NCBI GenBank assembly: GCA_964445095.1
Contig: CAYUJR010000002.1
Location: 5,176-69,175 of the forward strand
DNA from: an uncultured Gammaproteobacteria bacterium
GTDB taxonomy: Bacteria; Patescibacteriota; Microgenomatia; Levybacterales; JACOYD01
DNA: 64,000 bases
Direction of reading: 5' to 3'
Shown here: in pieces, positions 3,901 to 40,936 of the stretch
Position numbering within the stretch: position 1 is the stretch's first letter
How the letters are laid out: each line of letters begins with the position of its first letter
Program-made: the position numbers and the translations under genes
The notes under the pieces: model-generated
What the model saw: the letters and a program-made list of their open reading frames with translations, nothing else
Database searches by the model: none
Told to the model about the DNA's origin: nothing

Positions 3901-4717
3901 TGTTATGATACCGCAAATTATAAACAGAACAGGATTAGACCATCAGCCTAACAGAAATAATGCTAAAAAGCTTTTATATCCGGAAGATTTTATAAATAAA
4001 ATTATGTGTGGGGATGCTATCGAAATAATGAAACAAATCCCTAATCAAAAAGTAGACCTAGTTGTTACTTCGCCTCCTTATAATCTCAAAAATTCTACCG
4101 GTAACGGAATGAAAGACGGACGAGGTGGTAAATGGGCAAATGCTGCACTACAAAATGGATACACACATCACGACGATTGTATGCCCCATGATAAATATGT
4201 TAAATGGCAAAAAGAATGTTTGAATGAAATGATGAGAATAATTCCAGAAGATGGCGCAATTTTTTATAATCATAAATGGCGTGTTCAGGATGGCTTATTA
4301 CAAGATCGCCAAGATATCGTGGCTGGATTTCCTGTCAGGCAAATTATTATTTGGAAGAGAAAAGGAGGTCTTAATTTCAATTCCGGTTACTTCTTGCCTA
4401 CTTATGAAGTTATTTACCTTATAGCTAAACCGAAGTTTAAATTAGCGCCAAAAGCAAATGCTTATGGTGATGTTTGGGAATTTACCCAAGAAATGAAAAA
4501 TGAGCATCCCGCTGCTTTCCCTGTCAAATTAATTGATCGTATCATTTCTTCAACCAATGCAAAAATAATTCTTGATCCTTTTATGGGTTCAGGTACAACA
4601 GCTATTTCTGCGATTAATTTTAATAGAAAATATATAGGTATTGATATTTCACCGGAGTATTGTAAGATGGCACAGGAGCGAATTGAGCGCCACAATGCGC
4701 AAATAAAACTCCTGTAA
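3893..4717 (+). CDS. Beta-class N4-cytosine/N6-adenine DNA methyltransferase of a type II R-M system
   Basis: Motif IV TSPPY (VVTSPPYNL) precedes motif I DPFMGSGTT, which is beta-group order. SPPY is typical of N4C MTases. The ORF is open from TTG 3875; the start is placed at ATG 3893 and overlaps the lexA stop. Confidence 0.8.
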   Translation: MTNVMIPQIINRTGLDHQPNRNNAKKLLYPEDFINKIMCGDAIEIMKQIPNQKVDLVVTSPPYNLKNSTGNGMKDGRGGKWANAALQNGYTHHDDCMPHDKYVKWQKECLNEMMRIIPEDGAIFYNHKWRVQDGLLQDRQDIVAGFPVRQIIIWKRKGGLNFNSGYFLPTYEVIYLIAKPKFKLAPKANAYGDVWEFTQEMKNEHPAAFPVKLIDRIISSTNAKIILDPFMGSGTTAISAINFNRKYIGIDISPEYCKMAQERIERHNAQIKLL

Positions 4718-8572: not shown

Positions 8573-9709
8573 ATGTGGCAGAGCCTCAAAAACATCTATC
8601 ACTTGGCCATGGCGGTGGTGGCTAATTTGTGGTTTGGTTTTCCCTCAAAAAAGCTGACGGTCATTGGCGTGACCGGCACTGACGGTAAGACGACTACTGT
8701 TAACCTCATTTACCATATCTTAAAAACCGCCGGAAAACAGGTTTCGATGATTTCTTCGGTGGGGGCGGTTATTAATAGCAAAAATTATGAGACAGGTTTT
8801 CATGTGACCACTCCCTCTTCCTGGAAACTGCAAAAGTTTATCAAGAAAGCAGAAGGTTATTTAGTTCTCGAAGTTACTTCGCACGCTCTTGACCAGTACC
8901 GTGTTTGGGGCATAGATTTTGCAATTGGGGTACTGACTAATGTTACCAATGAACATCTTGATTACCACAAAACCTGGGAACAATATGTGAAAGTCAAATC
9001 AAAGTTGTTAAAAAACGCCAAGATAGCAATTGTTAATAAAGATGACAACTCCTACGGAGTAATTTCCAATTTCCAATTTCCAATTTCCAATAAATTAATT
9101 ACTTATGGATTAAAAAACTTTTCTTTTAAGACAAAATTGATGGGGGAGTTTAATAAATATAATATTTTGGCGGCGGCGGCGGCGGCAAAGACTTTAGGAA
9201 TAAAAGATCAAGTGATAAAAAAAGCAATAGCCAGTTTCCAATTACCGATTGGCAGGATGGAAGTTGTTTATAACGGCGCGTTTATGGTTATTATTGACTT
9301 TGCTCATACTCCAAACGCCCTAGAGCAAGCTTTATCGACAGTGAAAAAAAATGTTAGTGGTCGGTTAATTCATATTTTTGGTAGTGCTGGAGAAAGAGAT
9401 TTTCAGAAACGGCCGGAAATGGGAAGAGTTTCTAGCAAATACGCAGACATTATTATTTTGACTGCGGAGGATCCACGTTCGGAATCGGTTGATAAGATTA
9501 TCGAAGAGATTGAATCAGGAATTAAAAAGTCAGGAGTTTTGAGGGTTCAAAACAGGCAGGAGGCGATTAATACTGCTATTAAAATGGCCAAAAAAGGAGA
9601 TGTGGTGTTACTTACCGGTAAAGGGCACGAACAGTCGATGAATTATGGTCGGGGGGAGGAGCCGTGGAGTGAACATGAAGCAGTTAAACAAGCACTTAAA
9701 AAAAGTTAA
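8573..9709 (+). CDS. murE: UDP-MurNAc-L-Ala-D-Glu:meso-DAP/L-Lys ligase MurE (short form)
   Basis: GVTGTDGKTTT P-loop and DFAHTPNALEQAL (MurE DNAAHTPDAL-like) motifs. TATAAT at 8559-8564 sits only 8 nt before ATG 8573; the true start could instead be M at 8609. Confidence 0.85.
   Translation: MWQSLKNIYHLAMAVVANLWFGFPSKKLTVIGVTGTDGKTTTVNLIYHILKTAGKQVSMISSVGAVINSKNYETGFHVTTPSSWKLQKFIKKAEGYLVLEVTSHALDQYRVWGIDFAIGVLTNVTNEHLDYHKTWEQYVKVKSKLLKNAKIAIVNKDDNSYGVISNFQFPISNKLITYGLKNFSFKTKLMGEFNKYNILAAAAAAKTLGIKDQVIKKAIASFQLPIGRMEVVYNGAFMVIIDFAHTPNALEQALSTVKKNVSGRLIHIFGSAGERDFQKRPEMGRVSSKYADIIILTAEDPRSESVDKIIEEIESGIKKSGVLRVQNRQEAINTAIKMAKKGDVVLLTGKGHEQSMNYGRGEEPWSEHEAVKQALKKS
9062..9089 (+). repeat. (ATTTCCA)x4 heptanucleotide array, in-frame in murE
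   Basis: Four perfect units. With flanking bases it forms a 30-nt insert encoding ISNFQFPISN. Confidence 0.9.
9169..9186 (+). repeat. (GGC)6 trinucleotide repeat in murE (poly-Ala)
   Basis: GGCGGCGGCGGCGGCGGC encoding AAAAAA. Confidence 0.9.
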
Positions 9710-14708: not shown

Positions 14709-15376
14709 AAAAGAAACTAATACTTTTTGATTTGGATAATACTCTTTTTAATTCTGCTTCTTTAAGAGAAGCGATTTTTCTTAAAGTAGGGCAAGTATTG
14801 GCCAGTGATAAAAGTGAGATTGGCATAATAAGCGCCGTTGCTTCACGGATTTATGACGAACTAATGCGGGAGTTTGGCATATTTGATCCAACGCTTTTTT
14901 TGGAAGAAGTATTCAACCAAACCGGTAAGGGTGATGCAAAAGAAAAAAGAGAAATAATTCGTTTTATTATGGATAGAAATACTATCAAGGGACATTTCCA
15001 TAAAGAGGTGATGAATATTTTACTGCAACTATCAAAAATCGGACATTTGGGGATTTATTCCCAGGGAGAGAAAAAATTGCAGCGCCGAAAAATATCTTTT
15101 ATCAAACACTTGTTGCAACCCAAAATAATTCATGTCACTCGAAGTAAAAAATCGCAAATGAGAAGAATTTTTCGAAAATACAATAACTATAAAATATTTT
15201 ATATTGACGATAGATTACCGATGTTACAGCTTGCCAAGGAGATAGGAACAGATGTGGTTGGCGTTTGGGTTAAACGCGGTGGATATGCTAAGATGCAGCA
15301 ACCAATCGCCGGTTTTAAACCTGATGCGCAATTTAGTGATATTAAAAAAATTGTGGAACTAGTTGCTAATTATTAA
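14705..15376 (+). CDS. HAD-superfamily hydrolase/phosphatase
   Basis: ILFDLDNTLF motif I (DxDxT). 4-nt overlap with the upstream gene. Confidence 0.7.
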   Translation: MKKKLILFDLDNTLFNSASLREAIFLKVGQVLASDKSEIGIISAVASRIYDELMREFGIFDPTLFLEEVFNQTGKGDAKEKREIIRFIMDRNTIKGHFHKEVMNILLQLSKIGHLGIYSQGEKKLQRRKISFIKHLLQPKIIHVTRSKKSQMRRIFRKYNNYKIFYIDDRLPMLQLAKEIGTDVVGVWVKRGGYAKMQQPIAGFKPDAQFSDIKKIVELVANY

Positions 15377-15386
15377 TTTCTAATTT
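15366..15386 (+). repeat. Three heptamer units CTAATTA-TTAATTT-CTAATTT abutting the glmS ATG
   Basis: Occupies the expected SD position. Confidence 0.8.
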
Positions 15387-17153
15387 ATGTGTGGAATATT
15401 CGGTTACGTAGGTAAAAAAAATGCCTCCGATGTTGTAATAGCCGGTTTAAAAAGACTGGAATACAGGGGTTATGATTCGTGGGGTATTGCCGTAGTAGCC
15501 GATGAAATAAAACTCAATAAAAAAGTGGGAGCGATCGGAGATATGCTTCCGTCATCCAACTTCCAACTTCCAGCCTCCAACATCGGTATTGGCCACACCC
15601 GCTGGGCTACTCATGGGGGAATCACCGAAACTAATGCTCACCCACATTTTTCCACTGATAAATCTTTTGCCCTAGCCCAAAATGGAATTGTGGAGAATTA
15701 TCAAGTATTAAAAGATGAACTTAAGGAAAGGGGTTACAAATTTTTTACAGAAACAGATACGGAGGTAATTGTCCGGTTAATAGAAGATAAATTGAAGCTA
15801 ATTAAAGACCTGCAGGAAGCTGTCAGAAAAGCTTTTTTGGAGCTTGAAGGTAGAAACACAATTATTATTTTGACTAAGGATGGTCAAATTATTTCTGCCA
15901 GAAATGGTTCTCCCTTGGTGGTTGGAGTTAATCAAAAAGAAGTATTTTTTTCATCCGATACTTTATCTTTTGCGCCATTCGTCAAAAAAGTAATAGTGAT
16001 AGATAATGGCCAGATGGTTTATTATAACGGTAAACTTAATGTAGTAGATATTAAGTCCGGCAAAAGTCTCCAATACCATCTTGAAAAGATCGATTTTAAA
16101 AACAGTAAGGTTGATAAAGAAGGCTACGACCATTTTATGTTAAAAGAAATTCATGAAAGTCCTTATGTGATTGGTCAAGTAATCAATCAAGCTCGTGGCT
16201 TAGACGCTCTTGGTAGAGCTATAAAGAAAGCTAAAACTGTCTACTGCGTCGCTATTGGCACAGCTGGTGGTGCTGCTTCCCAAATAGCCTTCTATTTAAG
16301 GGTTCATTCTGGGATTAAAGCCTTGAGTTTAACGGCAGCTAATGCTCTTGATTATTACCCTTTGTTTACCACAGACGATTTGATCATTAACCCCTCCCAA
16401 TCCGGAGAATCAGCTGATGTTTTGGAGGTTTTGGAAAAAGCTAAAGAAAAGGGAGTAAAAATCGCTTCTTATGTTAATATGCCGGGTTCAACTACGACCA
16501 GAATGTCAGATTTTAAGTTCATGTCTAATGCCGGACCGGAAATTTGCGTGATGTCCACAAAAGTTTATGCTTCTCAAATAGCCTGGGGGTATTTGCTGTC
16601 AAAAGTGGTAAGCAGAAAGCAGGAAGATGGACAGACAAACCTTAAGTCTTTATCTTTGGAGGTGGAAAAGTATTTAAATACCGAAAATAATCACGATTTG
16701 ATAAAAAACCTGGCAAAGGAGCTGGTTAAAAAACAGCACATTTTTCTTCTGGGTAAATACCAAAACTTAAATATAGCTCGCGAAGGTATGATTAAAATTA
16801 TCGAGGGTTCATACATTCATGCTCATGCTATGCCGGCAGGAGACTTAAAGCATTACGCCATTACTCTAATGGAAAAAGGGGTGCCAGTGATTGTAGTAGT
16901 TTCTGAAGATATAGCAAGAGATGATGTGATAAACGCCGTAAATGAGGTCAGAGCCAGAGGGGCTTGGGTAATAGGCATTGCGCCCAAATCACACCCGAGT
17001 TTTGATGTCCATCTACCAGTGCCTAATACAGGGGAAACATCAGCCATCATGAATATAATCCCTTTACAGCTTTTAGCTTATTATATGGCAGTAGAACTGG
17101 GTCACAATGTAGACAAACCCAGAAATATTGCTAAGAGTGTAACAGTCAAATGA
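15387..17153 (+). CDS. glmS: Glutamine--fructose-6-phosphate aminotransferase GlmS
   Basis: MCGIFGYVG Ntn-amidotransferase start with two SIS domains; 588 aa. Three heptamer units precede the ATG. An internal (TCCAACT)-type 4-unit array lies at 15555-15582. Confidence 0.92.
   Translation: MCGIFGYVGKKNASDVVIAGLKRLEYRGYDSWGIAVVADEIKLNKKVGAIGDMLPSSNFQLPASNIGIGHTRWATHGGITETNAHPHFSTDKSFALAQNGIVENYQVLKDELKERGYKFFTETDTEVIVRLIEDKLKLIKDLQEAVRKAFLELEGRNTIIILTKDGQIISARNGSPLVVGVNQKEVFFSSDTLSFAPFVKKVIVIDNGQMVYYNGKLNVVDIKSGKSLQYHLEKIDFKNSKVDKEGYDHFMLKEIHESPYVIGQVINQARGLDALGRAIKKAKTVYCVAIGTAGGAASQIAFYLRVHSGIKALSLTAANALDYYPLFTTDDLIINPSQSGESADVLEVLEKAKEKGVKIASYVNMPGSTTTRMSDFKFMSNAGPEICVMSTKVYASQIAWGYLLSKVVSRKQEDGQTNLKSLSLEVEKYLNTENNHDLIKNLAKELVKKQHIFLLGKYQNLNIAREGMIKIIEGSYIHAHAMPAGDLKHYAITLMEKGVPVIVVVSEDIARDDVINAVNEVRARGAWVIGIAPKSHPSFDVHLPVPNTGETSAIMNIIPLQLLAYYMAVELGHNVDKPRNIAKSVTVK
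15555..15582 (+). repeat. TCCAACT-TCCAACT-TCCAGCC-TCCAACA heptamer array, in-frame in glmS
   Basis: Encodes SSNFQLPASN, close to the murE insert peptide ISNFQFPISN. Confidence 0.9.
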
Positions 17154-30130: not shown

Positions 30131-31228
30131 ATGCTGATTCGTCCTCAAACTCCCAATTTTGCCAAAATCCGCGTCATCGGAATTGGCGGCGGCGGCAATA
30201 ATGCCGTTACCTCGATGATTACCGTTAATCAAATCCAAGGAATTGAGTTTGTGACAGTAAATACCGATGCCCAAGCTCTCCTTATGTCTCAAGCCGCTAC
30301 TAAAGTACAAATTGGGGAAAACTTGACTAAAGGATTAGGCAGTGGCGGGGATCCCGAAATTGGACAAAAAGCAGCCGAGGAATCTGGAGAAAAATTAAAA
30401 GACCTAATTGCCGGTTCAGACATGGTTTTCTTGACTGCGGGGTTTGGTGGCGGTACCGGAACGGGAGCTACTCCAGTAATTGCCAAAATCGCCAAAGATG
30501 GGGGAGCGCTGACGGTGGCGGTCATTACCAAACCCTTTACTTTTGAGGGGACCAGACGCATGGTGGCGGCAGAAGAAGGTATAGAGAATTTAAAAGATAA
30601 AGTTGATACGTTAATTGTCATACCTAATCAGAGAATTCTAGATGTGGTAGACAAAAAAGTTTCATTGATAGAGGCCTTCCGAGTGGCCGATTCGGTGCTT
30701 GGGCAAGGGGTGCAGGGAATTTCTGACCTTATTACCATGCCGGGATTGGTCAACGTGGATTTTGCCGATGTCAGAACTATTATGAAAGATGCCGGTTCGG
30801 CTCTAATGGGAATTGGTACCGGCGTGGGAGAAAATAGAGCTCAAACTGCCGCCCGGAGCGCCATCGCTTCTCCTTTGCTGGAAGTCTCAATAGAAGGAGC
30901 TCGGGGAGTGTTATTTAATATTATCGGCGGACCGGATCTGACCATGAATGAAGTTGATGAAGCGGCCCGAATTATTTCAGAGAGTGCCGATCCCGATGCC
31001 AATATTATTTTTGGGACTACCATTGATGACACCATGCACGATCAGATAAAAATTACAGTGATTGCCACCGGTTTTGATCAGGCTAGGCAGCGACTAAAAG
31101 ATTTGTCTAAGCCTCTTGAAGCAACCAGAGTCCCCCAACCGCCAACATCAGTCGCTGAAGAAGAGATTGTTAAAAAGGAAGAAGAAGACATTTTCGACAT
31201 CCCAGCCTTCTTAAGACAGAGGAATTAA
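30131..31228 (+). CDS. ftsZ: Cell division GTPase FtsZ
   Basis: [10 protein letters not shown] tubulin signature and NTDAQAL motif. C-terminal DIPAFLR peptide. Confidence 0.95.
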
Positions 31229-31256
31229 ATAGCCTGCTGATATAGTCTCTGTTATA

Positions 31257-31856
31257 ATGCCGCTTATGTATATTTACTTTGAAGATTGGAGTGCTTTTAA
31301 GTGGATGCTTGGGGGAAAGGGTGTACCTAGAAGATTTATTGCAGATAGATTTATTAAGGCTATTGCTTCGGAAACTCACCCGCAAGACTTGGGATATAGC
31401 GGTGTGGTTTTGGAGTATGATGCAAATCCATTTAGGGCTGATTCGACATATGTAATTGGACCATCTGATAGCACGTTTACTTATAATGGACAAGAACTGG
31501 AAGAACAAATAGCAGCTTTAAGTTTAACGTATAATGAGAAAAACAGATTTCGGGCACTACTGCGTTTTGGATTCGATCAAAGATTAAAGTATGTTGAACA
31601 GGCAGTAACCACTGTAATTGGAGGAAGGCGATTAAAAGACCATCCGGTAGATACAGTAGATGTTCATTTAGATAAACGAACAGGTAGTAGGTTGCCGCAT
31701 TTTGATTTTTTTACAGAAGGAACTTTGGATAGGCTTAATAGAATAATAGGTTTTAGAGATAGGGAAAATATTTTGTTTTCTCCCCGTGAAGGTAGATTTT
31801 TTAGACAAGGAACTCCTCGAGCGCGGTTAGAAGGAAATAACATAATAAGAAGATAG
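31257..31856 (+). CDS. Hypothetical protein
   Basis: 199-aa ORF after ftsZ. No recognisable motif. Confidence 0.4.
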   Translation: MPLMYIYFEDWSAFKWMLGGKGVPRRFIADRFIKAIASETHPQDLGYSGVVLEYDANPFRADSTYVIGPSDSTFTYNGQELEEQIAALSLTYNEKNRFRALLRFGFDQRLKYVEQAVTTVIGGRRLKDHPVDTVDVHLDKRTGSRLPHFDFFTEGTLDRLNRIIGFRDRENILFSPREGRFFRQGTPRARLEGNNIIRR

Positions 31857-31880
31857 ATTTTTTTCTTAGCAATGAATAAC

Positions 31881-31912
31881 AAGGTCGGACCTTATGTCAA
31901 GGTCCGACCTTA
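31881..31912. repeat. REP-like hairpin repeat, copy 1 (13-bp stem, 5-nt loop)
   Basis: AAGGTCGGACCTT-ATGTC-AAGGTCCGACCTT followed by A. Identical to the copy at 32635-32666. Confidence 0.8.
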
Positions 31913-31941
31913 ATAATCTAAACTTTAATAACATAACGTAC

Positions 31942-32619
31942 TCACAATTCATCTTCCAGAATTAATTCGCCAAGTAGCTCTGTTGATTCTTGACTATAGT
32001 CTTCAACAAAGCTCTGATAAGATAGAACATCTTTTAAGCCTTTTAGTTGGGCATTACGGAAATAGCCAAGAATTTCCTGCGGTTTAATCCAGCTTGCTTC
32101 TTTCTTACCTAAATAATAGTGGTAACTTGAAAAATCTATAAAATCGATTGATGGACTAGAGATATTAATTGGATTAAGGTGGATGTATCGTGAAAGGTGA
32201 AGAAGATAAGATTCGGTTTCAATAAGCGCGGCTTTATATTTATTTTGAAAAAGAGAACCCACGCGTTGATATTTCTTATTGAAGTACATAGCGTAGCTAG
32301 TTAATACACGCCTCGTGAGTTTTATAATCCCATCTATAGTATGCTGTTTTATTTGTAAATGAATATGATTTGGCATAAGAGAAAACGCAAGAAGGTCTAC
32401 CTCGGATGATAAGTTTAATCTAATGAATCTTCTAAGACGCATATGAAGATCTGCTTGTTGTTTGATTTCTTCAACAGGAGAAAGATACAGCTTTAAATAA
32501 TAGAGGAATGTTGCGCAATCTTGCTTATCTATGAAGATTTGCCGTTTTTCTACGCCACGATTATAGATGTGATAATATCCATTCTCAACATATGTCTTAA
32601 CAGTATTTTTAGCAGGCAT
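31942..32619 (-). CDS. IS200/IS605-family Y1 (HUH) transposase, RAYT-like
   Basis: HUH motif (MPNHIHLQIK) and C-terminal catalytic-Tyr helix RYIHLNPINI (Y1_Tnp yixxNP pattern). Flanked by identical hairpins. Confidence 0.8.
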   Translation of the reverse strand: MPAKNTVKTYVENGYYHIYNRGVEKRQIFIDKQDCATFLYYLKLYLSPVEEIKQQADLHMRLRRFIRLNLSSEVDLLAFSLMPNHIHLQIKQHTIDGIIKLTRRVLTSYAMYFNKKYQRVGSLFQNKYKAALIETESYLLHLSRYIHLNPINISSPSIDFIDFSSYHYYLGKKEASWIKPQEILGYFRNAQLKGLKDVLSYQSFVEDYSQESTELLGELILEDEL

Positions 32620-32634
32620 ATCTTTATATTAATT

Positions 32635-32666
32635 AAGGTCGGACCTTATGTCAAGGTCCGACCTTA
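32635..32666. repeat. REP-like hairpin repeat, copy 2
   Basis: Exact 32-nt copy of 31881-31912 in the same orientation. Sits 16 nt upstream of the transposase start codon. Confidence 0.8.
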
Positions 32667-32717
32667 TTTGTTTGGCGGCTTGCGGGTTAGTTCGGTTTCT
32701 ATTACAATATAGTTTGT

Positions 32718-35534
32718 ATGTTTAAACCGGTGACGCCGCAAGTTGATTTTCCCAAGCTGGAAGAAGAAATACTGCAGTATTGGAAGAAAAATAAGATTTT
32801 TGAGAAATCACTTGCCAAAGATACTCCCAAAGGTAACTGGACTTTTTTAGATGGGCCGCCGTTTATTACCGGCCTTCCTCATTACGGCAGTCTTCTTTCA
32901 AGTATCCCCAAAGATTTATTTCCTCGTTACAAAACCATGCAAGGTTATCGAGTTAGACGAGTTTGGGGATGGGATTGCCATGGATTACCGGCCGAAAATA
33001 AAGTAGAGCAGGAACTGGGAATAAAAAGAAAGAGAGATATTGAAGAAAAAATTGGTATTAAAAAGTTTATCGAGTCCTGCAAGCTTTATGTTAAAAATGT
33101 TTCTTCCGAATGGCAATGGTACGTTAATCATGTGGGGAGATGGGTGGATTTTGAGAATGCTTATAAAACCATGGACTTATCATACATGGAAACGGTGATG
33201 TGGGTATTTAAGCAGATGTACGACAAAGGATTTATCTACAAAGGTCTTCGAGTACTCCTCTATTGTCCACATTGTGCGACGCCAATTTCCAATTTTGAGG
33301 TAGCTATGGATGCCGATAACTTTAAGGACTTATCCGATCCGTCCACAATTTATAAATATCAGCTAGCTGGTAAGCCAAAAACATATTTACTGGCTTGGTC
33401 AACCACGCCGTGGAACAAAATTGTAACCCCGGCTCTGGCTGTAAATCCTAAACTTACATATGCAAAAGTAAAACTGGGACAGGAAAATTATATTCTAGCT
33501 AAAACCACCCTGAAAATTTTGGGAAATGAAAAATATCAAGTTGTGGAGGAGTTTGGGGGTGAAAAACTGGTTGGTCAAAAATTTGTCCCCCATTACGACT
33601 ATTACAAAATTGATAAAGGTAAAAAAGCTTTTATAGTAGTCGGCGGCGACTTTGTAACTGCGGAAGAAGGAACTGGTATCGTCACGCTAGCCGTCTACGG
33701 CGAGGAAGATTTGGCCGTCATGCAAAAGGAAAACATACATATAGAAGTCCATCTCAATGAAGAAGGAATCGTTAAAAGTGAAGTGCCGAAATTTGGCGGT
33801 CTATATTATCTTAAGGCCAATGAAGCTGTCAACGAAGATCTTAAAGAAAGAAGATTAATTTATCGGGAAGAAGATTATATTCATACAGTTCCCACCTGCT
33901 GGCGATGCGGTACTAGGCTTTATTATGCGCCGCAAAACGCTTGGTATGTTGCCGTGCAAAAATTAAAAGTCCAAATGGAGAAAACTAATGAGTTCATTAA
34001 TTGGTTTCCTGAGCACTTTAAGCACGGACGTTTCTTAAAAAGTTTACAATCTGCCCCTGACTGGAATATTTCCAGAAACCGTTATTTTGGTTCGCCTGTC
34101 CCTGTTTGGGAATGTATGTGTGGTGAGCGTTTTGTGCCGGGGTCTATCAAAGAATTGGAAGAAAGAGCTGATCAAAAGATTACAGATTTGCATAAACCAC
34201 AGATTGACGAAATTACGATTACCTGTAAGAACTGTAGTAAAAAAGTAAAACGAGTACCGGAGGTTTTGGATAGCTGGATAGAGGCAGGAAGCGCTTCATT
34301 CGCCGAGCGCCACTTTCCATTTGAGAAGAAAATAAGATTGTCAGAATTTTTTCCGCCTGATTTTATTGTAGAATATACAGGGCAAATTCGTGCCTGGTTT
34401 TATGTTTTACATGTGATTGCCGCGGCTCTTTTAGACTCACATGCCTTTAAAAATGTTATTGTAACGGGTGTTATTTTGGGAACAGACGGAAGAAAGATGA
34501 GTAAAAACTACGGTAACTATCCGGATCCTCGGGAAATGCTTGGGAAATATGGCGGAGATGCGCTGCGTTTATATCTGATGGGTAGCCCGGTTATGAAAGG
34601 CGAGGATATTCTTATTTCGGAGGAACAATACAGAAATCAAGTACGAGGATTACTTTTAATTCTTTGGAATGTATACAATTTCTTTGTAGTTAATGCCAAT
34701 GCTGATAAATGGATACCGCCTTCTAATAATCAAAAATTTAAACCTATTCATGTTCTTGATCAGTGGATTTTATCTCGCCTTCATGGAAACGTCAGTAATG
34801 TTACTAAGGCGCTTGAAAGATTTGATACGGTTGATGCAATAGGTCATGCGGGAATCCTTTTTATTCACGATTTGTCAAACTGGTATGTGAGAAGAATTCG
34901 CGACCGGGTTGGACCAAGCGCACCTAATAGTCAAGACAAAAAAGATGCTTATCAAACTCTGTGGCTTGTTCTTAGTGAATATTGCAAAGTGCTTGCGCCC
35001 ATAATTCCCTTCGTTACGGAAGAAATCTATAAAAATCTGACTGGAGAAGAGTCAGTTCATCTTGCAAGCTGGCCTGCACTTAATAAGTCTTTACGTGATG
35101 TTAAGCTTGAAAAAGATATGAACAACGGGATAAATTTGGCTTCGGTTATTCACTCATTTCGTAAGACGGCGACTCTTAAAGTGCGGATTCCGCTGCAAAC
35201 ACTTACCTACGAAGGTCCTCAGCAATTATCAGATGAGGCAAGAAAGGTTGTTGAGGATGAAGTTAATGTGTATAAACTTATCTATCAGGGTAAAAGTAAA
35301 GAATATACGGTTACCGGTGATACAAGCGAGAAGAACCAAGATCTAGTTGCCGGAGAGGCTAGAGAAATTATCAGGCAAATTCAGCAAGAAAGAAAAAAGT
35401 TGGGAACTCGACTTGATGAAAAGGTTGATGTGTTTTTGCCCGACTGGCCAGAAGATTTTACAGAAGTTATTAAAAGTCAGGCTTTGGTTAAAAACATTGC
35501 CAAGGGAAACGAGTTTTTTGTTAAGCGGTTATGA
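32718..35534 (+). CDS. ileS: Isoleucyl-tRNA synthetase, type 2 (eukaryote-like)
   Basis: PPFITGLPHYGS (HIGH-region variant of type-2 IleS), WDCHGLP, KMSKNYGN (KMSKS). 938 aa. Confidence 0.92.
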   Translation: MFKPVTPQVDFPKLEEEILQYWKKNKIFEKSLAKDTPKGNWTFLDGPPFITGLPHYGSLLSSIPKDLFPRYKTMQGYRVRRVWGWDCHGLPAENKVEQELGIKRKRDIEEKIGIKKFIESCKLYVKNVSSEWQWYVNHVGRWVDFENAYKTMDLSYMETVMWVFKQMYDKGFIYKGLRVLLYCPHCATPISNFEVAMDADNFKDLSDPSTIYKYQLAGKPKTYLLAWSTTPWNKIVTPALAVNPKLTYAKVKLGQENYILAKTTLKILGNEKYQVVEEFGGEKLVGQKFVPHYDYYKIDKGKKAFIVVGGDFVTAEEGTGIVTLAVYGEEDLAVMQKENIHIEVHLNEEGIVKSEVPKFGGLYYLKANEAVNEDLKERRLIYREEDYIHTVPTCWRCGTRLYYAPQNAWYVAVQKLKVQMEKTNEFINWFPEHFKHGRFLKSLQSAPDWNISRNRYFGSPVPVWECMCGERFVPGSIKELEERADQKITDLHKPQIDEITITCKNCSKKVKRVPEVLDSWIEAGSASFAERHFPFEKKIRLSEFFPPDFIVEYTGQIRAWFYVLHVIAAALLDSHAFKNVIVTGVILGTDGRKMSKNYGNYPDPREMLGKYGGDALRLYLMGSPVMKGEDILISEEQYRNQVRGLLLILWNVYNFFVVNANADKWIPPSNNQKFKPIHVLDQWILSRLHGNVSNVTKALERFDTVDAIGHAGILFIHDLSNWYVRRIRDRVGPSAPNSQDKKDAYQTLWLVLSEYCKVLAPIIPFVTEEIYKNLTGEESVHLASWPALNKSLRDVKLEKDMNNGINLASVIHSFRKTATLKVRIPLQTLTYEGPQQLSDEARKVVEDEVNVYKLIYQGKSKEYTVTGDTSEKNQDLVAGEAREIIRQIQQERKKLGTRLDEKVDVFLPDWPEDFTEVIKSQALVKNIAKGNEFFVKRL

Positions 35535-39946: not shown

Positions 39947-40936
39947 ATGAAGATTGTTTTTCTCTGCCGCTTTTCTGCTTATAGAGTTGGTGGTGTGGAA
40001 ACGCATGTAAAAAAAGTTGCCGCCGGGTTAGAAAATAAGGGCCATACAGTTAATATTATCAGTAACATCAAATATCCGAAGATAAAATTTTTAGGGTTAC
40101 TGGTCATTTGGTGGCAGTTATTAAAAACATTTAAAGTTATTAAAACGGCTGATGTCGTTCATGTTCATGACGTTTTTATCTGGTATCTGCCGCTTCGTTT
40201 TCTATTCCTCAAAAAGCCTGTTTTTATTACTTTCCATGGCTATGAGACCAAATTTCCTCCTTCAAGATGGTCAATATTAATTAGAAAAATTAGCGAGAAA
40301 TTATCTTGGGGAAATATTTGCGTTGGTGATTATATTAAAAAATGGTATGGGACAAAGCCGACTTACACCACCTATGGTGGCGTAAGAATACTACCAATAA
40401 ATACCAATACTACAAATACTACCAATAAAAATAATAAACTCAAAATTTTATTTATTGGAAGATTAGAGAAGGATACGGGAGTTAATATTTATTTACAAGT
40501 CTTAAAGATTCTTAAGAAGAAAAGAATTAGGTTTGAGTTTGAAGCCTGTGGAGATGGACAGTTGCGGAGTGAGGTAGAAAAAATTGGCCAAGTCCATGGT
40601 TTTGTCAAAGATATATCTTTCTATTTAGCGAGGTCGGACCTGGTTTTTAGCTCGTCTTATCTTTCTATTTTAGAAGCAATGGTGAATAAAAAGCTGGTCT
40701 TTGCAGTTTTTAATAATCCGCTTAAAGAAGATTATCTCAAAATGACTTCTTTTGCTCAATGGATAATTATTGAAAATTCGTCGATTAAGTTGGTCAAAAA
40801 AATGCAATACTACTTAAGTCATAAAATTACCCGAGAAAAATTAACAAACAGGGCTTATCAGTGGGTCAAAAGTCAAACATGGGAGGAGGTCGTAAAAGTT
40901 TATGAAAGTTTCCATAGTGGTTACGGTCTTAAATGA
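39947..40936 (+). CDS. GT-B glycosyltransferase, family 4/group 1
   Basis: GT4-type N-terminus (RVGGVETHV) and a C-terminal EX7E-like region. Contains an Asn/Thr-rich low-complexity insert from short tandem repeats at 40387-40435. Confidence 0.7.
   Translation: MKIVFLCRFSAYRVGGVETHVKKVAAGLENKGHTVNIISNIKYPKIKFLGLLVIWWQLLKTFKVIKTADVVHVHDVFIWYLPLRFLFLKKPVFITFHGYETKFPPSRWSILIRKISEKLSWGNICVGDYIKKWYGTKPTYTTYGGVRILPINTNTTNTTNKNNKLKILFIGRLEKDTGVNIYLQVLKILKKKRIRFEFEACGDGQLRSEVEKIGQVHGFVKDISFYLARSDLVFSSSYLSILEAMVNKKLVFAVFNNPLKEDYLKMTSFAQWIIIENSSIKLVKKMQYYLSHKITREKLTNRAYQWVKSQTWEEVVKVYESFHSGYGLK

What the first reader, a model, noticed from the sequence alone, without database searches (positions are those of the whole stretch)
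31881..32666. RAYT/IS200-like Y1 transposase bracketed by two identical 32-nt hairpin repeats (REPtron-like)
The minus-strand gene has the HUH motif (NHIHLQ) and the C-terminal RYIHLNP tyrosine helix of IS200/IS605 TnpA/RAYT. AAGGTCGGACCTT-ATGTC-AAGGTCCGACCTT-A occurs at 31881-31912 and again at 32635-32666 in the same orientation; each copy is itself a 13-bp-stem hairpin. This is the architecture of REP-associated tyrosine transposases. The repeat may be dispersed genome-wide as a REP family. The element sits at the 3' end of the dcw operon, right in front of ileS.
Basis: seen in the sequence. Interest (0 to 1): 0.6.

Follow-up and report, generated by a model that had tools for sequence, protein, structure and literature searches.

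The report
Hairpin-flanked Y1 transposase cassette in CPR
A small gene for a single-strand-DNA cutting enzyme (a relative of REP-associated transposases) sits between two identical 32-base hairpin repeats as a recent insertion in front of ileS in a Candidate Phyla Radiation bacterium, and comparison with about 80 relatives shows the enzyme and its 13-base palindromic sites evolve together, a little-described variant of a known kind of element.

Summary
The 32-mer occurs exactly twice (31881-31912, 32635-32666; none expected), and each copy folds into a 13-bp hairpin. The minus-strand ORF between them (225 aa) is a Y1 HUH protein with invariant H85/H87/Y145. Its best structural match is E. coli TnpAREP. 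The link between gene and hairpins holds across the family: in 80 homologous loci, 13-nt units (RRGG-N5-CCYY) lie within 90 nt upstream in 67/75 and downstream in 62/77 (background 0.014). The N5 core differs between genomes but matches within a locus. The window's 32-mers are doublets of two inverted units, like miniature REPINs. The 5' doublet carries the gene's promoter (TTGACA-17-TAATAT, 6 nt before the ATG). The two closest relatives lack the cassette at this site. Solo doublets are not seen elsewhere in the window, but they occur in related genomes, some in frame inside nadE and pyrF. By its motifs the protein is a class-2, subclass-2.1-like (TIRYT / group 1 RAYT) enzyme. It is neither a canonical RAYT nor an IS200 transposase.

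The parts
31881..32666 (-). Whole cassette: doublet, Y1 gene, doublet (786 bp). It is an insertion relative to the closest relatives.
   Evidence: Relatives with 93% and 85% identical FtsZ (L108, L111) have ORFan-ileS only 32 and 47 nt apart, with no Y1 gene and no units. GC is about 34% against 40-48% in the flanking genes. Similarity to L002/L110 (96.4%) stops 5 nt or less beyond the outer foot of the 3' doublet.
32635..32666 (.). 5'-side palindromic doublet. Units are at 32635-32647 and 32653-32665, the loop at 32648-32652. It forms a 13-bp hairpin.
   Evidence: Exact repeat; fold. In homologs, units lie within 90 nt upstream in 67/75 loci. The hairpin ends 11-18 nt before the ATG in most loci.
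32626..32654 (-). Promoter-like site of the Y1 gene. The -35 TTGACA (32654-32649) lies at the loop/arm junction of the 5' doublet. After a 17-nt spacer (the second arm) comes the -10 TAATAT (32631-32626). The ATG follows 6 nt downstream, so the mRNA is probably leaderless.
   Evidence: Consensus scan, 10/12 matches. The same layout is found in 32/74 homolog upstream regions against 1/68 control regions, and the -10 ends exactly 6 nt before the ATG in 21.
31942..32619 (-). Y1 HUH ssDNA endonuclease/transposase gene, 225 aa. It is class 2, subclass-2.1-like: HUH = H85/H87, catalytic Tyr = Y145, and a conserved C-terminal tail at 150-225.
31881..31912 (.). 3'-side palindromic doublet. Units are at 31881-31893 and 31899-31911, the loop at 31894-31898. 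It lies 29 nt after the stop codon and looks like a terminator on the gene strand.
   Evidence: Exact repeat; fold; terminator-like call on the minus strand. In homologs, units lie within 90 nt downstream in 62/77 loci.

Best explanation
This is a REPtron/TIRtron-type cassette of the Candidate Phyla Radiation. A class-2 Y1 HUH enzyme is bracketed by its own cognate DNA sites. The site is a 13-nt palindromic unit (here AAGGTCSGACCTT; in general RRGG-N5-CCYY). In the window each flank carries two inverted units 5 nt apart, and on single-stranded DNA these fold into a 13-bp hairpin, a miniature REPIN.

Inferred by homology to IS608/ISDra2 TnpA and E. coli TnpAREP: the enzyme binds these hairpins on transiently single-stranded DNA. 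It nicks and rejoins them through a 5'-phosphotyrosine on Y145, with H85/H87 holding the metal.

Shown comparatively: the unit's core differs between genomes, but all copies in one locus share it. That includes both flanks, copies inside the gene, and nearby solo copies. Protein and sites therefore co-evolve. Solo doublets with the window's exact sequence type occur in a related genome, some in frame inside housekeeping genes.

The 5' doublet also holds the gene's -35 box, and the ATG lies 6 nt after the -10. Occupation or extrusion of the hairpin should therefore throttle transcription (an inferred autoregulation). The 3' doublet probably terminates transcription.

In this genome the whole cassette is a recent arrival between an ORFan and ileS. 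In several other lineages the gene is a stable, vertically inherited, single-locus resident.
For: Fold and catalytic residues: Pfam Y1_Tnp above cutoff. H85, H87 and Y145 are invariant. The Tyr aligns with ISDra2 Y132. The AF2 model has pLDDT 89, and its best PDB match is 4ER8 TnpAREP-REP (E 1.5e-6), followed by ISDra2 and IS608 TnpA.

Cognate sites: units lie within 90 nt upstream in 67/75 loci and downstream in 62/77, against 0.014 expected. An identical 13-mer is on both sides in 36/72. There are 13 distinct cores. The stem is 100% paired, 9/13 pairs change on both sides, and the covariation score is 0.60 against 0.15, 0/500 shuffles.

Internal units identical to the flank units occur in 29/80 genes.

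Solo cognate doublets: JACOYD01 (L011, L015, L002:1185) and L033, L054, L092. A scan of 596 Gb for the doublet pattern found 18 loci, all in Patescibacteria.

Promoter.

Insertion: empty sites in L108 and L111, and low GC.

Stability elsewhere: in L019 against L020 the Y1 gene is 74.8% identical and the uvrA/uvrB flanks are 74-77%. P0111 sits in one context on 24 contigs.
Against: No biochemical data exist for any member of this family. No copy of the unit lies outside the cassette in the 64-kb window, so dispersal in this genome is unproven. Copy number in relatives is low, roughly one solo doublet per 75 kb of flanking sequence. Published surveys found no REPs next to subclass 2.1 genes (PMC6006769), so the family assignment and the REP association sit uneasily together. 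The doublet set used for the covariation test was pre-selected for at most 1 mismatch between arms. The flanks are too diverged (69-75% nt) to place the insertion boundaries to the base, and the slot is hypervariable, so loss in the relatives cannot be strictly excluded.
Confidence: 0.62

Rival explanations
1. It is an autonomous IS200/IS605-style insertion sequence. The unit hairpin-gene-hairpin transposes as one piece by single-strand peel-and-paste, with the two doublets acting as left and right ends. Solo doublets are by-products or decayed ends.
For: The closest relatives have empty sites. The 3' half of the cassette is 96.4% identical to L002/L110, while the neighbouring ftsA-ftsZ is only 70% identical, and the similarity stops at the hairpin foot. 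The JACOYD01 contig breaks inside the gene, as contigs often do at repeats. The two doublets are identical and in the same orientation. The literature describes group 1 RAYTs as the most IS-like (PMC5581495).
Against: The Y motif is YIHLNP (class 2) and not Y---Q, and the protein has an 80-aa tail absent from IS200 TnpA. There is one copy in 64 kb. The gene stays in one context across 24 contigs and diverges at the same rate as uvrA/uvrB in a syntenic pair. Solo doublets form their own sub-family (U-GACAT-U) and occur without gene remnants. Flank orientation is direct in some loci and inverted in others. The 96% match could be a repeat-induced assembly join.
Confidence: 0.22
2. It is a domesticated, immobile Y1 gene whose flanking hairpins are only its own regulatory elements: an operator/promoter upstream and a terminator downstream. 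On this reading there is no transposition of anything, and similar palindromes elsewhere are unrelated terminators or protein-binding sites.
For: The promoter is embedded in the 5' doublet at a fixed distance from the ATG. Both doublets score as terminator-like. The gene is stable and vertically inherited in several lineages. There are no extra copies in the window.
Against: Solo doublets with the same locus-specific core occur kilobases away and on other contigs of the same MAG. Units sit in frame inside nadE, pyrF and the Y1 gene itself, where they cannot be terminators. There is an 18-nt unit-plus-spacer indel between nadE orthologs. The cassette itself shows presence/absence.
Confidence: 0.1
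3. The association is a coincidence, or the hairpins belong to another system, for example binding sites of an unrelated palindrome-binding protein or uptake-type signals that merely accumulate in CPR intergenic DNA.
For: The 13-mer is a perfect dyad of the kind bound by dimeric dsDNA-binding proteins. The same TCSGA core is found in many CPR phyla.
Against: Units are about 60-fold enriched at both ends of the Y1 gene in about 80 independent loci. The core changes in step at both ends. Background density is 0.15 per kb.
Confidence: 0.04

Closest known systems
TIRYT / TIRtron = TnpAY1 subclass 2.1 = group 1 RAYT (Di Nocera 2013, PMC3733652; Bertels 2017, PMC5581495; Quentin 2018, PMC6006769)
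   Same: The motif signature matches: NHxH, FQ in place of W[EQ], Y[IV]HLNP, a proximal tail with SS(Y), and a length of about 225-238 aa. It aligns over 194 aa (28% identity, E 2e-24) with a 235-aa Rhodospirillum plasmid protein carrying NHIH / WQ / YIELNP / WSSY. It is low copy. The gene is flanked by short repeats that are sometimes self-complementary and sometimes form small families.
   Different: No Bac_DnaA_C or HTH_23/28 tail is detectable. The flanks are 13-nt RRGG-N5-CCYY palindromes, often as hairpin doublets, and not GGGGWSAS TIRs. Quentin et al. found no REP-like sequences near 2.1 genes. CPR is not mentioned in what I read of these surveys.
E. coli REPtron: TnpAREP (RAYT, subclass 2.2; PDB 4ER8) with REP/BIME
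   Same: It is the best structural match. It has the Y---NP motif. The gene is flanked by its cognate extragenic palindromes arranged as inverted pairs (REPINs). The gene is single copy.
   Different: The window protein scores below the NCBIfam equivalog cutoff and phmmer finds no sequence match to 4ER8. The hairpin has no GT[AG]G foot and no bulge. The units are 13 nt against about 35 nt. There are tens of copies at most, not hundreds. The promoter lies inside the 5' palindrome.
IS200/IS605 TnpA (IS608, ISDra2) with subterminal hairpins
   Same: The fold and the HUH/Tyr chemistry are shared. Hairpins sit near both ends of a one-gene element. The cassette is present or absent between relatives.
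   Different: The window protein has the class 2 motif (NP, not Q), a longer protein and no tnpB. Both flanks carry identical perfect palindromes. The gene is stable and syntenic in many lineages. There are solo hairpin families.
REPIN (Bertels & Rainey 2011, PMC3337134)
   Same: Two inverted repeat units separated by a short spacer form a hairpin. They are associated with a single-copy Y1 gene. Solo copies form sequence sub-families.
   Different: The whole doublet is only 31 nt. Copy number is low. The associated protein is not a group 2/3 RAYT.
In-gene palindromic insertions: subclass 2.4 RAYTs with REPs inside their own gene (PMC6006769) and Rickettsia palindromic elements (own knowledge: Ogata et al. 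2000)
   Same: In relatives of the window element, units lie in frame inside the Y1 gene (29/80) and inside nadE, pyrF and other genes.
   Different: The positions in Y1 are before the HUH motif and after the Y motif, not between them. The inserts are 13-31 nt and not about 100-150 nt. None of this is present in the window itself.

Membership tests
Y1 HUH transposase superfamily (Pfam PF01797 Y1_Tnp) | Match to the family HMM above the curated cutoff | tested here: met
   35.1 bits against a cutoff of 23
Y1 HUH transposase superfamily (Pfam PF01797 Y1_Tnp) | HUH motif and a single catalytic Tyr on the following helix | tested here: met
   H85, H87 and Y145 are invariant in 28 sequences. The profile alignment puts NHIHL on ISDra2 DHVHL and Y145 on Y132 (E 0.06).
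Y1 HUH transposase superfamily (Pfam PF01797 Y1_Tnp) | TnpA-like fold | tested here: met
   AF2 model with pLDDT 89. Foldseek hits: 4ER8 at E 1.5e-6, then ISDra2, IS608 and IS200 TnpA at 5e-5 to 1e-3.
IS200/IS605 TnpA (class 1, subclass 1.1) | Y motif Y---Q; core-only protein of about 150 aa | tested here: not met
   The motif is YIHLNP and the protein is 225 aa with a conserved tail (criteria from Table 1).
IS200/IS605 TnpA (class 1, subclass 1.1) | Several near-identical copies per genome | tested here: inconclusive
   One copy in the 64-kb window. The rest of the genome is not available.
Canonical RAYT / TnpAREP (NCBIfam NF047646; subclasses 2.2, 2.4, 2.5, 2.7, 2.8) | Equivalog HMM above cutoff | tested here: not met
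   35.8 bits against a cutoff of 80
Canonical RAYT / TnpAREP (NCBIfam NF047646; subclasses 2.2, 2.4, 2.5, 2.7, 2.8) | Class 2 Y motif Y---NP | tested here: met
   YIHLNP
Canonical RAYT / TnpAREP (NCBIfam NF047646; subclasses 2.2, 2.4, 2.5, 2.7, 2.8) | Flanking REPs with a 5' GT[AG]G tetranucleotide at the hairpin foot | tested here: not met
   The feet read ...AAC|AAGG and ...ATT|AAGG, with no GTAG or GTGG. Homolog flanks lack it as well.
Canonical RAYT / TnpAREP (NCBIfam NF047646; subclasses 2.2, 2.4, 2.5, 2.7, 2.8) | The same palindrome dispersed in many extragenic copies in the host genome | tested here: inconclusive
   There are 0 further copies in 64 kb. A related MAG has at least 3 solo doublets, and other lineages have 1 nearby solo each.
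TnpAY1 subclass 2.1 / TIRYT / group 1 RAYT | Motif signature NH[V/Y/F]H, W[EQ] or FQ, YIELNP or Y[IV]HLNP, tail with SS, about 238 aa | tested here: met
   NHIH, LFQN, YIHLNP, FSSY, 225 aa (against Table 1). Full-length alignment to a protein with the 2.1 signature. NHIH departs from the listed hydrophobic residues by Ile for Val.
TnpAY1 subclass 2.1 / TIRYT / group 1 RAYT | C-terminal HTH (Bac_DnaA_C, HTH_23 or HTH_28) | tested here: not met
   No Pfam hit besides Y1_Tnp at E<=0.1. The tail is helical in the model.
TnpAY1 subclass 2.1 / TIRYT / group 1 RAYT | Flanking terminal inverted repeats, many with GGGGWSAS; no REP-like hairpins | tested here: not met
   The flanks are AAGGTCSGACCTT hairpin doublets in direct orientation. 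Some distant homologs have inverted single units, and a few read GGGGTCAC.
REPIN | Two inverted REP units with a spacer, able to form a hairpin | tested here: met
   13 + 5 + 13 nt with perfect complementarity
REPIN | A replicating population of tens to hundreds of copies per genome | not testable with these tools

The most novel reading that the evidence does not exclude
Candidate Phyla Radiation bacteria carry a large, undescribed REPIN-like system. It consists of a subclass-2.1-like Y1 enzyme family (about 800 clusters at 50% identity) and a 13-nt palindromic unit whose 5-nt core tracks the enzyme lineage. The units homogenise across all copies of a genome. They supply the enzyme gene's own promoter. 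They spread as 18-nt (6-codon) unit-plus-spacer steps that stay in frame. They therefore colonise surface loops of housekeeping proteins (nadE, pyrF, mnmA-like and others) and two loops of the enzyme itself, in genomes that have almost no intergenic space.
Probability: 0.4. Interest if true: 0.72.

Novelty: new variant of a known kind. Interest (0 to 1): 0.55.

Why it matters
Subclass 2.1 / group 1 is the largest class of RAYT-like proteins. It is also the class for which no cognate DNA is established: surveys report no REPs next to its genes. In this family the cognate site is obvious, short, and varies in step with the protein. That makes specificity directly testable with oligonucleotides and core swaps.

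It also extends REP/RAYT biology to the CPR. These genomes are about 1 Mb with minimal intergenic DNA. There the same palindromes appear in frame inside essential genes, so a selfish or domesticated DNA element would be shaping protein loops.

For annotation, the gene should not be called an IS200 transposase. The hairpins are also a likely cause of contig breaks in CPR assemblies.

Tried and rejected
- A direct phmmer search of the protein against PDB found nothing relevant. A profile gave only a marginal ISDra2 hit, so fold search was needed.
- Rfam: no family near its gathering score over 31200-33000. The hairpins are not a known RNA.
- Viral contigs: no exact doublet. Phage records: one weak partial protein hit. 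PADLOC: none. PHROGs: one marginal hit. There is no sign of a phage or defence origin.
- The window protein and the 100%-identical FtsZ (P0241) are not retrievable by exact look-up. The rest of the source genome could therefore not be examined.
- I looked for further unit copies in the window. There are only the four arms, plus one 2-mismatch 13-mer at 40630, which is within chance.
- I looked for target-site duplication or an extended stem shared between the outer flanks. L029 shows complementarity, but the window and other loci do not, so I dropped the idea.
- I considered that direct orientation of the two doublets argues for IS200-like ends. I rejected this because homologs show both direct and inverted arrangements, and a perfect palindrome reads almost the same on both strands.
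- I considered TTGACA in the loop as a cleavage motif. I rejected this in favour of a promoter role, because solo doublets in other phyla carry unrelated loops and the -10 and ATG spacing is conserved.
- The left end of the JACOYD01 copy could not be obtained because the contig ends inside the gene. The 96% against 70% contrast may therefore be a repeat-induced assembly join and not transfer.
- The ORFan upstream (31257-31856) has no family match and no similarity to the ORFans at the same slot in relatives.

Full report
**Observation.** The 32-mer AAGGTCGGACCTTATGTCAAGGTCCGACCTTA is present exactly at 31881-31912 and 32635-32666, both on the + strand. No other match with up to three mismatches exists in the 64-kb window, and none occurs in 100 shuffles. 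Each copy folds as single-stranded DNA into a 13-14 bp stem with a 5-nt loop (about -15 kcal/mol, z about -8), equally well on either strand. Between the copies lies a 225-aa ORF on the minus strand (31942-32619) with NHIHL and RYIHLNP. Upstream on the + strand are ftsA, ftsZ and a 199-aa ORFan. Downstream are ileS and ftsW/rodA. One point was missed: each 13-nt arm is itself a dyad (AAGGTC-S-GACCTT). The 32-mer is therefore two inverted copies of a single 13-nt unit.

**The protein.** It passes Pfam Y1_Tnp (35 bits, cutoff 23). It fails the NCBIfam equivalog for REP-associated tyrosine transposases (35.8 against 80). More than 8000 homologs were found, and the best are 60-74% identical. All named ones come from Microgenomates-group CPR bacteria. 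An exhaustive profile search counts 805 clusters (50% identity) at E<=1e-30. In an alignment of 28 members, H85, H87 and Y145 are invariant, and so is much of an 80-residue C-terminal tail. A profile of this alignment aligns the HUH motif and Y145 with the HUH motif and the catalytic Y132 of ISDra2 TnpA. An AlphaFold model (pLDDT 89) matches E. coli TnpAREP bound to its REP hairpin best (4ER8, E 1.5e-6). ISDra2, IS608 and IS200 transposases follow.

**The hairpins belong to the gene.** I fetched 80 metagenomic loci with homologs of 44-74% identity, plus several long contigs.
- A 13-nt unit of the form RRGG-N5-CCYY lies within 90 nt upstream of the start in 67 of 75 distinct loci.
- It lies within 90 nt downstream of the stop in 62 of 77.
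- The density in the remaining 292 kb of the same contigs is 0.15 per kb, which is 0.014 expected per 90 nt.
- The 5-nt core differs between loci (13 cores among the doublets), but the same 13-mer is found on both sides of the gene in 36 of 72 loci.

Close relatives carry doublets like the window's. More distant ones carry a single unit inside a longer stem, often with the core reverse-complemented between the two flanks, so that they look like terminal inverted repeats. On 20 doublets the 13-bp stem is 100% paired. Nine of 13 pairs change on both sides, and the covariation score is 0.60 against 0.15 in shuffles, with 0 of 500 reaching it. This set was chosen for at most one arm mismatch, so the pairing percentage is partly built in. 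The diversity of compensated cores is not.

**Promoter.** On the gene strand the window reads TTGACA (at the loop/arm junction of the 5' doublet), 17 nt (the second arm), TAATAT, 6 nt, ATG. The same arrangement, TTGACA at 5/6 or better, 16-18 nt, then TAnnnT, occurs in 32 of 74 distinct upstream regions against 1 of 68 control regions. In 21 the -10 ends exactly 6 nt before the ATG. This points to a leaderless transcript whose promoter is physically part of the palindrome. Both doublets also score as terminator-like.

**Dispersal.** The window holds no other unit. A scan of one genome per species (596 Gb) for AAGGTCSGACCTT-N5-AAGGTCSGACCTT returned 18 loci, all in Patescibacteria of several phyla, and several MAGs contributed two or three contigs.
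- One MAG (JACOYD01) has the window's loop. It carries three solo doublets that share the variant U-GACAT-U, with a central mismatch. The gene-flanking copy is U-GACAT-U'.
- Two of these solo copies lie in frame inside nadE and pyrF, read as RSDL-xx-RSDL. They fall in stretches that are 5-9 residues longer than in solved orthologs.
- The nearest nadE ortholog differs at that spot by exactly 18 nt, one unit plus spacer. It retains a unit-like AAGGAGCGACCTT.
- Similar in-frame doublets occur in Saccharibacteria genes.
- Three other lineages show a solo doublet with the locus-specific core 1-2 kb from the Y1 gene.

Copy number appears low, in line with the roughly 12 occurrences reported for 16-mers flanking group 1 RAYTs (PMC5581495).

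**Mobility of the cassette.** The closest available relatives, by FtsZ at 93% and 85% identity, have ftsA-ftsZ-(ORFan)-ileS-ftsW-L21. Only 32 and 47 nt separate the ORFan from ileS, and there is no Y1 gene and no unit within 12 kb. The cassette is also poorer in GC than its neighbours. It is therefore most simply an insertion in the window's lineage. The ORFans in this slot are unrelated to one another, which shows the slot is hypervariable. The 3' half of the gene plus the 3' doublet is 96.4% identical to the end of a JACOYD01 contig, whose ftsA-ftsZ is only 70% identical. The similarity ends within 5 nt of the hairpin foot. That would indicate recent transfer. However, the contig stops inside the gene, and a 31-nt repeat is exactly where an assembler can mis-join, so I treat this as suggestive only. 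Elsewhere the gene is stable. Two Daviesbacteria-like contigs keep it between uvrA and uvrB with the same divergence as the flanks (74.8% against 74-77%). One Levybacteria protein is found in a single context on 24 contigs from many samples.

**Classification.** Using the criteria of Quentin et al. 2018 (PMC6006769):
- YIHLNP places the protein in class 2 and excludes IS200 proper (Y---Q).
- The combination NHxH, FQ, Y[IV]HLNP, an SS-containing tail and about 230 aa is the signature of subclass 2.1 (Bertels' group 1; the TIRYTs of Di Nocera 2013).
- A 235-aa Rhodospirillum plasmid protein with that signature aligns over 194 residues, including the start of the tail.

Two things do not fit. No HTH/DnaA_C domain is detectable. 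The literature also reports no REP-like sequences near 2.1 genes, only GGGGWSAS-type inverted repeats in some. The canonical RAYT features are absent too: there is no GTAG foot and the equivalog score is not reached. I found no paper linking RAYT-type elements with CPR.

**Mechanism, with status of each step.**
- Shown: the fold, the catalytic residues, and conserved, co-varying palindromes at both gene ends. Also shown are the promoter geometry, the empty sites, and solo and intragenic copies in relatives.
- Inferred from IS608, ISDra2 and TnpAREP biochemistry: the enzyme binds the hairpins on single-stranded DNA at the replication fork. It cuts and rejoins through Y145, which copies or moves doublets and occasionally the whole cassette.
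- Inferred from geometry: hairpin occupancy represses the gene.
- Unknown: the cleavage position, the strand, and any benefit to the host.

**Rivals.**
- An IS200-like autonomous element (0.22) explains the empty sites. It does not explain the class-2 protein, the stable syntenic copies or the gene-less doublet families.
- A purely regulatory pair of hairpins around a domesticated gene (0.10) explains the promoter and terminator. It does not explain in-frame copies in other genes or cognate solo copies.
- Coincidence (0.04) is excluded by the roughly 60-fold enrichment and the matched cores.

**Novelty.** The kind, a Y1 gene bracketed by cognate palindromes, is known. Several things do not appear in the literature I could search:
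- the 13-nt unit and 31-nt doublet;
- the association with a 2.1-like enzyme;
- the promoter inside the palindrome;
- the CPR host range.

In relatives, the in-frame colonisation of the enzyme's own gene (29/80) and of housekeeping genes is also unreported there. I rate this a new variant of a known kind, of moderate to good interest.

Noticed in passing
L037, L049, L064, L061, L056, L069, L047, L092, L072, L102 and others (gene-internal positions about nt 150-185 and 430-500): In 29 of 80 homologs, the same 13-mer that flanks the Y1 gene also lies in frame inside it. It sits at two fixed loops: after 'YLxP' before the HUH motif, and right after the Y motif. The encoded peptides include LGSDP, QGFNP and EVRPL. 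The core differs between loci but matches the flanks within each locus. The window gene has none. In-gene REPs were described as unique to subclass 2.4, and at another position.
   Followed up: partly
L011:2372-2402 (nadE), L015:3162-3192 (pyrF), L003:2817, L012:1773, L014:19, L018:7502, L004:98, L005:7078: Solo doublets lie in frame inside long ORFs of several CPR phyla, mostly read as RSDL-xx-RSDL. Because the unit is a dyad with its centre at a Ser wobble position, both orientations encode RSDL. Unit plus spacer is 18 nt, or 6 codons, so gaining or losing one keeps the frame.
   Followed up: partly
Alignment A3 (NadE orthologs P0130, P0133, P0145, P0150, P0153, P0154, P0214, P0215), columns about 140-195: The same NadE loop carries other insertions in other Microgenomates. 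They are much longer (up to about 60 aa), contain HLEGG...SFEV, and look like translated palindromes. This loop is an insertion hot spot.
   Followed up: no
L017:20-125 and L006:1915-2000 (MAG133, JAYEKQ01): Two contigs share a nearly identical segment of about 250 bp. It holds tandem arrays of AAGGTCCGACCTT with period 18, followed by (GGGAACTT)n. The copy numbers differ between the two contigs.
   Followed up: no
window 31257-31856; L108:7148-7723; L111:6942-7529; L110:7133-9651: The slot between ftsZ and ileS is hypervariable. Close relatives carry unrelated ORFans of about 190-199 aa. JACOYD01 carries an NYN-domain gene, two ORFans and a GATase bracketed by doublets.
   Followed up: partly
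L019/L020 (uvrA ... Y1 ... uvrB) and L113-L122 (Transglut_core-uvrC-Y1): In two independent context types the Y1 gene sits next to nucleotide-excision-repair genes, each preceded by a Transglut_core gene. In L106 the uvrC-SecG interval has a holin-like gene in place of Y1.
   Followed up: no
L106:1804-2046, 4269-4541, 8891-9145, 15363-15602: There are four small free-standing GIY-YIG ORFs within 20 kb of a Microgenomates contig. One position differs between L106 and L107, which suggests mobile homing-endonuclease-like genes.
   Followed up: no
window 32695-32720; L108:7740-7758; L111:7560-7579: ileS is preceded by a conserved (C)TACAAT 7-9 nt before its ATG in the window and in both relatives. 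Leaderless transcription may be common in this lineage and not special to the Y1 gene.
   Followed up: no
P0396, P0436, P0454, P0457, P0460, P0475, P0481 and others: Some family members are 350-430 aa long. They have the full 225-aa Y1 module at the N-terminus followed by about 170-200 extra residues of unknown nature.
   Followed up: no
window 40630-40642: GAGGTCGGACCTG is a 2-mismatch match to the 13-nt unit. About one such match is expected by chance.
   Followed up: no
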